Shown here piece by piece: positions 8,296 through 57,966 of a stretch of 64,000 nucleotides of DNA. This DNA is from Eledone cirrhosa (taxonomy: Eukaryota). The notes under the pieces were generated by a model. That model was not told where the DNA came from. It searched no databases and saw only the letters and a program-made list of their open reading frames with translations. Positions within the stretch are counted from its first letter, which is position 1, and each line of letters starts with the position of its first letter. The stretch is from contig OZ024745.1 of assembly GCA_964016885.1 (NCBI GenBank), forward strand, positions 131,068,001-131,132,000. The letters are read 5' to 3'. A program made the position numbers and the translations under genes.

Positions 8296-8464
8296 TATAT
8301 ATATATATCATCATCATCAACCTGACCGTTTTACGTCCATTTTTCCACGCTAGCATGGTTTAGTAGAGTCATCCTGTTTCTATCTTCCCACTTTTAAGAC
8401 TCAGTTTTATATATATAGATATATAGATTGACCAACAGTTAAAAATATAAATATAAATATAATT

Positions 8465-8510
8465 TATCAAAGTTCTTTCATCACACATTTCTGTGACATC
8501 TTCAGTGATA
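8465..8510 (-). ncRNA. Minimal type-I hammerhead ribozyme (Penelope-like)
   Basis: Minus strand reads UAUCA CUGAAGA U GUCACA-loop-UGUGAU GAAA GAAC UU UGAUA: intact core, 5-bp stem I, stem II, minimal stem III; same family as 56668-56708. Confidence 0.75.
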
Positions 8511-15622: not shown

Positions 15623-15728
15623 TTGTTATATTTGGGGAGGGTCATATTGTTATAATTTTGCCAGAAATAATAATTGTTTCTACTTTTTGGCAATATTATA
15701 ACAATATGACCCTCCCCAAATATAACAA
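15623..15728. mobile_element. Short fold-back element with TTGTTATAYTTGGGGAGGGTCAT termini
   Basis: Arms TTGTTATATTTGGGGAGGGTCATATTGTTATAAT / ATTATAACAATATGACCCTCCCCAAATATAACAA. Confidence 0.8.
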
Positions 15729-16266
15729 TATATATAGATGTATATAAGTTGACAGGACTAGCATGGGTTTCACTGCTAGCACCGGTTGCATCTCAGCGTA
15801 TTCAATAGGTAATGTTAAGTAAACTCCCAGAGTAGACACATAGTTATTTGATTTAATACAACACATGTAAATAGATACCTTTTATCTATAGCAGAACTGA
15901 AAACACATTCACTGTTTCGTTTGGTTATATAAGGTGTTTCGTAGTCTAATAACATAGTCAATGATGACAACTTATTTTAGGACATCATCATCATCATCAT
16001 TACACATCCACTTCCTTGCTTGCAAGGGTGGGACGGGTCCTATTCAGCACAGCATATATATATATATATATAATTTGTGGTTAAACAACAACAGTAATCT
16101 GCAATGATTACACAAGTATGGTTGATATTTTATATTCAGTTTCTAACAGGTTGAGTAATGGAGTTAAATATTCCTTAGTTGTCTAGGGAGGTGCTCACAG
16201 TCAGCTGAAATAATAGAGACTACAAGCACGTGTGTGCATATATATATATATGCACGTGTGTGCATG

Positions 16267-37635: not shown

Positions 37636-37639
<4 letters not shown>

Positions 37640-38001
37640 TTGCGAGGTTTTTGATATGAAATCGTGTGTCGAAACAAATATTGTTATACTTGGGGAGGGT
37701 CATATTTGAGTAATATTGCCAGAATTAATAACAGAACCCACTCACTGTTTGGTTGGTTTTCGCTTTTGTGTCTTTTATATCGGTAATCTAATTTATTCGG
37801 TCCTCAATGTTGCCATTGACTGACCAACGGTCAAAAATCATACAGATACAATTTTGACCGTTGGTCAGTCAATGGCAACATTGAGGACCGAATAAATTAG
37901 ATTACCGATATAAAGGACACAGAAGCGAAAACCAACCAAACAGTGAGTGTGTTCTGTTATTAATTCTGGCAATATTACACAAATATGGCCCTCCACAAGT
38001 A

Positions 38002-39264: not shown

Positions 39265-39971
39265 CTGTTGGAAACTCCGGGAGCTTCCAACAGCAATGGT
39301 TGCATTCTTTAAGGGTATGTCAATATTTATTTGTAAAACTGATCTATATTATATTTTATATGATGAAAGCACACCATAATTTAACTTGGTGTCCTTGAAT
39401 ATGTATAATGAAATAAATATGGTTTTATAAATATAGTTTCCATTTGTTAATATATCGTATTTTATAAATATAGTTTCCATTTGTTAATATATCGTATTTT
39501 TACTCCAATAATTTGTTGAGTGCTTTATATCAGTTATAAAATTATTTGCTTGTTGTATCCCAACAATTTAAATAGAACTTCTACATATATATATATATAT
39601 GTGTGTGGGTCGATAAAATAAAATACCAGTAATACACTGGAGAATTGCTGGTCTTGTGCCAAAAGTAGAAACAATTATTACTGTGTGTGTGTTTCTGTAT
39701 ATGTGTATATGTGTGTATTTATTCTGCAAGATTCTTGATGTGAAATCGTGTGTTGAAACCGATATTGTTATATTTGCGGATGGTTATGTTGCCAATAGAA
39801 AGAAACACACACATATATATATAAGTTAAGGGCCGAAACACTCGCTTGCGGGAGGGTTTCTTTGAAGATCTTCAGCTGTCCAGCTCTCCTGAGACTTTCT
39901 TACCAACACACACATATAATTTTCTAATGATTTACCTTGTTCTTGAGGATGAAATCCTCGTGGAGTTAAGA

Positions 39972-56015: not shown

Positions 56016-56200
56016 TTTACCTGCCTCCATTCTGATTTATATATGAATTTATAAGTATAATATATGAAAGGCCATATTGATCTTTAACACTTGTTGGTTG
56101 TTTCTAAATAAACTGGGTTCCCACATGGTCTGCTGGTATATATTGATGTCTGCCACATGGTCTGCTGGTATATATTGATGTCTGTGTATATTTGTTGCAG

Positions 56201-56351
56201 GTTGGGTGAGTATTCTTGTGGAATGGTTAAAATCTGGGGACATAGATGTTTGCCTCAATACAGCACGTGCCTTAGCCAACATGGATATTGACAATGCCTC
56301 TGCCATGTACCATGATGGTGTTTATGTCCTTCATCCCATACACCGATCCAC
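56201..56351 (+). CDS. SERAC1: SERAC1 exon 10
   Basis: GWVSIL..ARALANMD..YHDGVYVLHPIHRS vs human GWVSIM..ARILANLD..YQDGVYVLHPQYRT. Confidence 0.96.
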
Positions 56352-56419
56352 GTAAGTGACTACCTATTTTATTTTCTCCTCAATTAAAAAATATAAATAT
56401 TTATTAAATTTCTTTATTG

Positions 56420-56916
56420 TATTGTTATACTTTGGGAGGGTCATGTTGCCAATAAGAACACATGCACCAGTTCCTTTCACTTCAATTTATTATACTAAAT
56501 TTATAAATTTAGGAATTTATAAATTTCCGGTTGGTTGGTTCCACAACCAGCTGGTTGTTTATATATTGTCAAAGTTCTTTCGTCACACATTCTGTGACGT
56601 CACACAAAAACAAGATGGCGTAGGACAGAACAAAGGAGAGGCACAAAAACAAAGAAAAGAATCCCCAGTCACTGAAGAGGTCACAGAATGTGACGAAAGA
56701 ACTTTGACAATATATAAACAACCATCTGGTTGTGGAACCAACCAACCAACCGGAAATTTATAAATTCCTAAATTTATAAATTTAGTATAATAAATTGAAG
56801 TGAAAGCAACTGGTGCGTGTGTTTCTTATTGGCAACATGACCCTCCCAAAGTATAACAATATCGGTTTCAACACATGTTTTCAGATAAAGAATCTTGCTA
56901 AACAAATTCAGAAACG
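56420..56916. mobile_element. Penelope-like fold-back element (~180-bp arms) with a one-sided tail
   Basis: 56420-56600 is the reverse complement of 56678-56861; tail 56862-56916; flanking direct repeat AAATT(T)CTTTATTGTATT at 56406 and 56917. Confidence 0.88.
56668..56708 (+). ncRNA. Minimal type-I hammerhead ribozyme
   Basis: GUCA CUGAAGA G GUCACA-GAA-UGUGAC GAAA GAAC UU UGAC; intact core; stem I covaries with the copy at 8465-8510. Confidence 0.8.
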
Positions 56917-56961
56917 AAATTCTTTATTGTATTTATAGAGGAATATTCCATTATTTTGCAG

Positions 56962-57109
56962 AGAGCCCATATATGTAGATGTTGTGTTTGTTCATGGTTT
57001 ACTAGGAGGTCCATTTAAAACCTGGCGGCAGGGGGGTTCTGACCAGAGAAATGCCGCTGAACTAGAAGAGTTAATATCTAAAGGTCTCTATACACGATGC
57101 TGGCCAAAG
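56962..57109 (+). CDS. SERAC1: SERAC1 exon 11
   Basis: DVVFVHGLLGGPFKTWRQ...YTRCWPK vs human DVLFIHGLMGAAFKTWRQ...YTTCWPK. Confidence 0.97.
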
Positions 57110-57144
57110 GTAAGACACTCTTTTATTCGCCTCGGTCACCTCAC

Positions 57145-57395
57145 CTCTTCTCTCCCTCTCTCTATCTCTCATTCACTCTCTCTCTATCTCTCATTCACTC
57201 ACTCTCTCTCTCACTCACTCTCTCTCACTCACACACTCTCTCTCACTCACACACACTCTCTCACTCACTCACTCACTCACTCACTCACTCTCTCTCTCAC
57301 TCACACACACTCTCTCTCTCACTCACTCACTCACTCACTCTCTCTCTCTCACTCTCTTTCTCTCACTCACTATCTCTATCTGTCTCTCTCTCTCC
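57145..57395. repeat. (CT)n/(CACT)n microsatellite
   Basis: Direct reading. Confidence 0.9.
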
Positions 57396-57966
57396 TTTAC
57401 TGTTTTTAAGAGTTGTTATTTTATGGTTGATATGCAAACTTGTTTGTAATCAGCCCTGGGTTAACAATTAAGCAGAATATACACATTTTTAGGGCCTCAA
57501 GAAAAGAGGCACATAGTTTTCTTCAAGTACAAGATTTACATTGGTCCATGGAGCAGTGTTGCAGCTAAACCAAAGCCCATAAAAAGGGAGCTCAGCTTCC
57601 CCTAACCCCCTCCTGCCTTTCTTTTCAATGTTTAGTAGTTTTAAAGATCTTAACCCTTTAGGATTTAAACCGGCCATATCCAGCCAGAATTCTCTTACAG
57701 CTTTCTGTTCAAACTGGCCATAACTGGCCCCTCATACCAACTTTAAGGTATTGTTCTCAAAATAAATAATATCAAAATCTCATAGACTCGATATTATGTG
57801 AGATATTTATGTGAAGTAATACAATATATAGAGTAATGTGAATGCTAAAGGGTTAATCCTGTTTTCTTTGTAATATAGACTCTCTGCATATTTTTGAATT
57901 GGTGAGCATGAGTCTTTAACACACTGCACCATGTTGCCAACAGATTCTCTTGTCTCTTCTCTATGT

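What the first reader, a model, noticed from the sequence alone, without database searches (positions are those of the whole stretch)
56406..56933. Ribozyme-containing fold-back element with apparent target duplication occupies most of a SERAC1 intron
Seen: ~180-bp inverted arms; a minimal hammerhead (56668-56708) at the inner start of the right arm; the left arm truncated inside the ribozyme; a ~55-nt tail on one side only; a ~17-bp direct repeat (56406-56423 / 56917-56933) on both flanks. It fills about 500 of the 610 nt between exons 10 and 11, and the ribozyme is in the sense orientation. Established: a one-sided tail plus an inverted pseudo-LTR is Penelope architecture, and Penelope minimal hammerheads can cleave as dimers. 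Inference: the hairpin brings the splice sites together and masks the ribozyme.
Basis: partly seen in the sequence, partly recalled or inferred. Interest (0 to 1): 0.75.

Follow-up and report, generated by a model that had tools for sequence, protein, structure and literature searches.

The report
Ordinary Penelope jumping-gene end in intron
The fold-back, the one-sided tail, the flanking duplication and the hammerhead motif are all real, but they are the usual insertion footprint of a jumping gene with thousands of copies in this genome, and the ribozyme is predicted to be locked shut by the hairpin and is likely a harmless passenger in the host gene.

Summary
Observation confirmed. 56420-56916 is a solo pseudo-LTR of a young Penelope-like element: RT plus C-terminal GIY-YIG, Neptune-type motifs, 5,770 exact hits of a 31-nt pattern in this octopod-like genome. 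The layout is the family norm. Head-to-head arms occur in 27 of 85 sampled loci, and 23 of those 27 carry the 55-nt tail on one arm only. The family normally lands in (TA)n (101 of 113 ends). This copy hit unique AT-rich DNA, so a 14-bp target duplication is readable. The minimal hammerhead (56668-56708, predicted cut after 56704) is intact and shared with a sister family. It folds alone but is predicted to cost about 33 kcal/mol inside the intron, so masking is predicted, as a by-product: 15 of 27 inverted loci do the same. Bringing the splice sites together looks unnecessary, since this is the shortest of 11 mapped SERAC1 introns. A spliced contig joins the flanking exons, but it comes from another sample and has G for A at 56962. 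No empty site was shown. The scan already noted this family and layout elsewhere in this genome. Ordinary.

The parts
56201..56351 (+). SERAC1 coding exon upstream of the insertion; donor GT at 56352
   Evidence: tblastn with P0001-P0003; spliced contig of X4
56410..56423 (.). Left copy of the 14-bp target-site duplication; its last 4 nt (TATT) also match the start of the inverted arm
   Evidence: (D6)
56420..56598 (-). Inverted, tail-less, 5'-truncated pLTR copy ending inside the hammerhead; family positions 1561-1744 of L016
56593..56604 (.). 12-bp perfect palindrome at the junction of the two arms
   Evidence: read directly; palindromes at inverted junctions are described in PMC3846280
56601..56861 (+). 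Sense pseudo-LTR, starting at family position 1482, inside the cluster of 5' ends (likely the element's transcription start)
56612..56620 (+). AAGATGGCG word just after the 5'-end cluster; resembles a YY1 site (label recalled, untested)
56668..56708 (+). Minimal type I hammerhead motif; predicted cut after 56704
56837..56916 (+). Likely start of the element ORF (ATG 56837, MTLPKYNN...), running through the pLTR end and the tail; truncated here
   Evidence: the same frame runs on as an 875-residue stop-free stretch into RT in L097
56862..56916 (+). 55-nt tail, on the sense arm only; the element match extends to 56920 by microhomology (AAAT)
56920..56933 (.). Right copy of the target-site duplication
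56962..57109 (+). SERAC1 coding exon downstream (DVVFVHGLLGG); acceptor AG 56960-56961

Best explanation
This is one insertion of a Penelope-like retrotransposon, a solo pseudo-LTR with tail plus an inverted tail-less copy, whose hammerhead is predicted to be base-paired shut in the SERAC1 pre-mRNA and is likely an inert passenger. Shown: family membership, copy number, two fixed 3' ends 55 nt apart, the duplication, and a shared source for both arms. Inferred: the GIY-YIG endonuclease nicked both strands of AT-rich DNA about 14 nt apart. Each free end primed reverse transcription at one of the element's two start sites, using about 4 nt of AT-rich microhomology. The tailed cDNA ran through the uncut hammerhead to the RNA's 5' end, the other stopped inside the hammerhead, and the two were joined at a short palindrome. 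A fold-back (self-primed) origin of the second arm would give the same picture and is not excluded. Inferred for the host: the antisense arm is transcribed first and captures the ribozyme strand as it emerges, both splice sites stay outside the hairpin (68 and 100 nt away), and the intron is spliced normally.
For: Longer copies continue upstream into RT and GIY-YIG (Pfam E 7e-5 and 3e-4, below the curated cut-offs), and L097 is a tandem pLTR-ORF-pLTR. There are 5,770 exact pattern hits and 0 for the control. 111 of 115 3' ends fall in two narrow bins around family positions 1745 and 1800; 27 of 85 loci are head-to-head; 23 of 27 are tailed on one arm. Arms of one insertion differ at 5 of 95 subfamily-diagnostic sites, against 43% in permuted pairs (minimum 18% in 2,000 permutations), and both window arms share a variant seen in 1 of 105 copies. 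20 of 61 5' ends lie in the 19 nt at 1479-1497 and only 1 lies at 1583-1592 around the cut site. Stem I pairing probability is 0.94 for the motif alone and about 1e-23 in the intron; the penalty is 33 kcal/mol, and 26 kcal/mol in the nascent RNA. Published precedent: inverted pLTR, optional tail, 8-10-bp duplications and junction palindromes (PMC3846280); two RT start sites bounding the tail, cleavage and extension of both strands, a protein-assisted hammerhead, and uncut RNA as template (PMC11167929).
Against: No empty site was seen, so the duplication is inferred from the flanks alone. The tail (55 nt) and duplication (14 bp) are longer than the published values I read (30-40 nt; 8-10 bp). 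The spliced contig comes from a different sample (S2) that reads G at 56962 and may not carry the insertion, so normal splicing of the filled allele is not shown. Stem I pairing is only 0.17 even in the unmasked sense pLTR. Folding is equilibrium prediction and cleavage was not assayed. No phylogeny was built, so the clade rests on motifs.
Confidence: 0.9

Rival explanations
1. The insertion has been co-opted: the hairpin helps splice the intron, or is a selected safety lock, or gates a ribozyme that tunes SERAC1 output.
For: The complete motif is on the sense strand, masking is predicted, and the hairpin would cut the effective intron from 610 to about 170 nt.
Against: This is the shortest of 11 mapped introns. 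The shorter arm reaches the hammerhead in 15 of 27 sampled inverted loci, none chosen for gene context (counted by hand). The arms carry uncompensated mismatches at the family rate. A contig of organism B matches the upstream exon and 30 nt of intron and then has no further listed match over 325 nt, a weak hint that the insertion is not shared.
Confidence: 0.05
2. It is a non-autonomous DNA transposon (MITE or fold-back) with terminal inverted repeats, and the hammerhead is a chance match.
For: Long inverted arms and a flanking duplication. The loose core pattern gives 7 hits against 4 expected in the window. No Rfam hit.
Against: 58 of 85 sampled loci showed no opposite arm within the DNA fetched, 5' ends are ragged while 3' ends are fixed, and longer copies run into RT and GIY-YIG. 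A sister family with a 43-56% identical endonuclease keeps mainly the hammerhead (82-92%) and the terminus (about 80-85%) of the pLTR.
Confidence: 0.01
3. The ribozyme does sometimes cut the SERAC1 pre-mRNA, for example when the element's protein is present or by pairing in trans with other family RNAs, making the insertion mildly harmful.
For: The core is intact. The anole PAc hammerhead cleaves only when the element protein is added (PMC11167929). Family-matching contigs are abundant in X4.
Against: The predicted penalty is 26-33 kcal/mol. Minimal hammerheads were inactive as monomers and weak as dimers in vitro (PMC4209133). No genomic excess of 5' ends at the cut site (1 of 61).
Confidence: 0.04

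Closest known systems
Insertion units of endonuclease-bearing Penelope-like elements, e.g. Pen2a_Av of Adineta vaga (PMC3846280, passages read) and the general scheme in PMC8557442 (passages and section 11 read)
   Same: Inverted 5' pLTR, tail on one arm, short duplication, junction palindrome, ORF start inside the pLTR and tail, solo pLTRs, an Asn-rich stretch in the ORF (L097), and (TA)n targeting linked to the Cys linker.
   Different: Tail 55 nt against 30-40 nt and duplication 14 bp against 8-10 bp. Here the whole unit is only pLTR plus inverted pLTR. I found no description of this octopod family in the searches run.
Minimal type I hammerheads of metazoan PLE pLTRs (PMC4209133, parts 1-2 of 4 read)
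   Same: CUGANGA and GAAA core, one extra base before stem II, G10.1-C11.1 pair, 4-bp stem I, minimal helix III, dispersed mostly as single motifs, some in close opposite-strand pairs.
   Different: Loop 3 (AA) is not palindromic. Stem II is 5-6 bp, against 7-8 bp in Schistosoma.
PAc (Poseidon) of Anolis carolinensis in vitro (PMC11167929, parts 1-2 of 4 read)
   Same: Two RT start sites bounding the tail, AT-rich targets, both strands used, and uncut RNA as the dominant template, which fits the 3'-end and 5'-end distributions here.
   Different: Different clade. In PAc the ORF starts within the hammerhead; here the likely ATG lies about 130 nt downstream of it.
Conserved intronic hammerheads of amniotes (RECK, CTCL, DTNB; review PMC6155905, passages read)
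   Same: A type I hammerhead inside a host intron.
   Different: Those are single-locus motifs conserved across birds or mammals. This is a minimal motif in a young multi-thousand-copy repeat, with no conservation at this locus shown.

Membership tests
EN+ Penelope-like element | Single ORF with RT and GIY-YIG endonuclease in the parent element | tested here: met
   L121 has a 660-aa open frame with RT (YVDD) and C-terminal GIY-YIG; Pfam RVT_1 E 3e-4 and GIY-YIG E 6e-4, both below curated cut-offs. The window copy itself is non-coding apart from the ORF start.
EN+ Penelope-like element | pLTRs in tandem or inverted arrangement with 5' truncation | tested here: met
   L097 is a tandem pLTR-ORF-pLTR; 27 of 85 loci are head-to-head.
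EN+ Penelope-like element | Optional tail on one end | tested here: met
   62 tailed, 49 tail-less and 4 other 3' ends; 23 of 27 inverted pairs are tailed on one arm. The length of 55 nt exceeds the 30-40 nt described.
EN+ Penelope-like element | Hammerhead in the pLTR | tested here: met
   The strict motif is intact in 54 of 87 copies; variation concentrates at tolerant positions (6.5% against 1.3% in the core); position 17 is U, A or C and never G.
EN+ Penelope-like element | Target duplication proven by an empty site | tested here: inconclusive
   A 14-bp repeat is present. There is no second copy of the locus in G000, and the contigs laid showed no empty allele.
Neptune clade (versus Nematis, Penelope/Poseidon, Hydra, Naiad) | C-terminal EN with CX2-5CxxC linker and CCHH motif | tested here: met
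   CIDKKCITC linker, two Cys inside the GIY-YIG core and two later His. This rules out Hydra, Poseidon and Naiad as defined in PMC8557442; Nematis is not excluded.
Neptune clade (versus Nematis, Penelope/Poseidon, Hydra, Naiad) | Placement in an RT phylogeny | not tested
   No reference PLE sequences were fetched.
Minimal type I hammerhead ribozyme | Conserved core and stems I and II | tested here: met
   All 11 pairs are Watson-Crick; stems I and II form at 0.94 and 0.997 in the isolated motif.
Minimal type I hammerhead ribozyme | Palindromic helix III or loop 3 allowing a dimer | tested here: not met
   The segment has an AA loop, with a predicted self-duplex of +1.4 kcal/mol.
Minimal type I hammerhead ribozyme | Self-cleavage | not testable with these tools
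   Needs an assay; contigs cannot show RNA ends.
Non-LTR retrozyme | Two or more tandem units, each with a hammerhead (definition in 10.64898/2026.07.22.740005) | tested here: not met
   One complete motif, in an inverted rather than tandem arrangement.
Domesticated intronic hammerhead (RECK type) | Conserved at the orthologous intron across species | tested here: inconclusive
   One contig of organism B diverges 30 nt into the intron. No orthologous genomes could be fetched.

The most novel reading that the evidence does not exclude
The 180-bp transposon hairpin recruits ADAR in this cephalopod and drives A-to-I editing of the first base of the next exon (56962, read as G in the spliced contig). 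That would turn CAG|A into the preferred CAG|G acceptor, so that a young Penelope insertion both silences its own ribozyme and retunes the neighbouring splice site. A plain allele in another individual explains the G more simply.
Probability: 0.06. Interest if true: 0.65.

Novelty: new member of a known kind. Interest (0 to 1): 0.17.

Why it matters
As a host feature it likely does not matter. Its modest value is as a clean specimen: about 9 in 10 family ends sit in (TA)n, where junctions cannot be read. This copy shows a 14-bp duplication, 4-nt microhomology at both reverse-transcription start sites, a junction palindrome and two arms from one source. Collecting such non-(TA)n copies would test how Penelope elements nick, prime and build inverted ends, a step that PMC11167929 and PMC8557442 describe as not yet worked out.

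Tried and rejected
Rfam scan of the window: no hit, so the hammerhead call rests on manual pairing and family comparison.

Empty site: no second copy of the right flank in G000. X1 has one contig running unbroken from the exon into the left arm (56155-56444). X1, X2, X3 and X5 had no cover on the right flank, which proves nothing because of the tool's filter. No RNA holder was listed; X4 is treated as an RNA assembly only because it skips the GT-AG intron. Editing in the arms could not be tested, since other family copies swamp the contigs and the joint and loose-end tables were cut.

The idea that cut RNA serves as template was raised by two inverted arms ending at 1585-1586 in the first, best-score set of 30 loci. 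It was rejected in the position-ordered sample: 1 of 61 ends near the cut site, about what an even spread gives.

A compensatory change in stem I between the two families: some sister-family copies have A-U in place of G-C and others an A/G mismatch (20 of 25 loci printed), so I do not count it. A pattern count of this was not run, so the question stays open. The sister-family loci were selected by likeness to a hammerhead-containing query, which inflates conservation of that motif.

Sample caveats: the 85 loci come from the first 100 of 5,770 matches (first 64 Mb of C1). 88 loci were fetched and 3 duplicates dropped. Flanks were short, so 27 inverted is a lower bound (L051 and the L053/L054 pair were scored single).

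Organism C (X6) holds near-identical element pieces but no SERAC1 exon. Trace DNA and horizontal transfer cannot be told apart, so this was not used. Literature searches listed no paper on this locus or family. Most hits were seen as listings only, figures were not visible, and the bioRxiv supplements were not consulted.

Full report
Observation. The inverted arms are 56420-56598 and 56680-56861 (fold z -35.7) and differ by 3 substitutions and 3 indels. A minimal hammerhead lies at 56668-56708 with all 11 expected pairs and a predicted cut after 56704; Rfam gave no hit. A 55-nt tail (56862-56916) is on the right arm only. The flanking repeat is 14 bp exact (56410-56423 and 56920-56933), matched by 7 of 20,000 flank shuffles. 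The host gene is SERAC1 of an octopod-like cephalopod (88% to Octopus sinensis, 86% to Argonauta), and the intron is 56352-56961.

What it is. The right arm has at least 40 near-full-length matches at 96-100% among 1,875 candidates, and a 31-nt pattern has 5,770 exact matches against 0 for the control. [quoted passage not shown] L097 is a tandem pLTR-ORF-pLTR in which the tail continues into the ORF. The CX4CxxC linker and CCHH motif fit Neptune (or Nematis) and exclude Hydra, Poseidon and Naiad as defined in PMC8557442; no tree was built. Copies differ from the majority letter by 1.3% on average (97 copies), so the family is young.

The layout is the family norm. In 85 loci from the first 100 pattern matches, 27 are head-to-head, and 23 of these have the tail on exactly one arm. 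111 of 115 3' ends fall in two narrow bins 55 nt apart, and 101 of 113 abut (TA)n. The window copy is one of the minority in unique DNA, which is why its duplication is readable. The same layout, with 8-10-bp duplications, a 31-nt optional tail and junction palindromes, is published for rotifer Penelope elements (PMC3846280, passages). The window junction has a 12-bp palindrome at 56593-56604.

How it arose (inferred). Both arms come from one source. Arms of a pair differ at 5 of 95 diagnostic sites against 43% in permuted pairs, and the two window arms share a variant found in 1 of 105 copies. Both outer junctions have about 4 nt of AT-rich identity between element and target. This fits nicking of both strands and priming at the two start sites that bound the tail, as shown in vitro for anole PAc (PMC11167929). 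Self-primed fold-back, the reading in PMC3846280, is an alternative. 20 of 61 5' ends cluster at family positions 1479-1497, where this copy also starts (1482), and only 1 lies near the cut site. The template was therefore likely uncut RNA starting at an internal promoter, as is known for Drosophila Penelope (PMC2377424, passages).

The ribozyme. It is real at family level. The strict motif is intact in 54 of 87 copies; variation is 1.3% in the core, 1.5% in the stems, 6.5% at tolerant positions and 1.7-2.5% in the flanks; and position 17 is never G. The contrast with the flanks is small because the family is young. A sister family (658 candidates; endonuclease 43-56% identical in 2 of 25 loci) keeps mainly the hammerhead and the terminus, with the caveat that it was found through the motif. 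Alone the motif folds (stem I 0.94, stem II 0.997). In the sense pLTR stem I falls to 0.17. In the intron the fold costs 33 kcal/mol, and 26 kcal/mol in nascent RNA. Loop 3 is not palindromic and the dimer helix is predicted unstable. Published minimal hammerheads were inactive as monomers and weak as dimers (PMC4209133), and the PAc one needed protein.

Effect on the host. Masking is predicted but is a by-product: in 15 of 27 inverted loci the shorter arm reaches the hammerhead (hand count). A role in bringing the splice sites together is unnecessary. By tblastn block edges the other 10 introns are about 0.67-4.6 kb, and this one, at 610 nt (100 nt without the insertion), is the shortest. A 2,028-nt contig of run X4 joins the two flanking exons across the intron. 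It is from another sample than X1-X3 and reads G instead of A at the first base of the downstream exon, a synonymous change. This is an allele or an edit, and it means that normal splicing of the insertion-bearing allele is likely but not shown. No empty site was found. In organism B one contig matches the upstream exon and 30 nt of intron and has no further listed match over 325 nt, a weak hint that the insertion is absent there but also that its intron is not a simple 100-nt empty site.

Comparison and verdict. It is a member of the endonuclease-bearing Penelope-like elements and carries their minimal hammerhead. It is not a retrozyme (no tandem units) and not shown to be a domesticated intronic hammerhead like that of RECK (PMC6155905, passages). 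My searches listed no paper on this family, and the supplement rows I saw for PMC8557442 (first places only) were octopus Naiad and Hydra families. Earlier unchecked notes of this scan report the same family and layout elsewhere in this genome; they agree but are not independent support. New member of a known kind; interest 0.17.

Noticed in passing
window 8458-8508, - strand: Hammerhead of a second, related Penelope-like family (658 candidates in G000). It shares mainly the ribozyme and the terminus with the family studied.
   Followed up: yes
window 56962: The spliced contig of X4 reads G where the window has A, at the first base of the exon (synonymous, Thr). Allele or A-to-I edit, unresolved.
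   Followed up: partly
window 37637-37706, 39714-39813 and 15702-15746: Older fragments (81-89% identity) resembling the pLTR end or tail.
   Followed up: no
window 56121-56184: Exact tandem duplication of 32 nt ending 16 nt before the acceptor of the preceding intron, in the likely branch-point region.
   Followed up: no
family positions 1479-1497 of L016 (window about 56601-56616): Strong cluster of 5' ends (20 of 61) around an AAGATGGCG word; likely the element's transcription start.
   Followed up: partly
L097 851-3475: The element ORF carries a long Asn/Thr-rich low-complexity stretch before the RT, recalling the Asn-rich inserts of Adineta Penelope ORFs (PMC3846280).
   Followed up: no
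run X6 (organism C) laid on window 56600-56920: Element pieces with 0-2 differences over 67-95 nt but no SERAC1 exon; trace DNA or horizontal transfer.
   Followed up: no
window 57130-57400: Long (TCAC)n/(TC)n microsatellite directly after the downstream exon.
   Followed up: no
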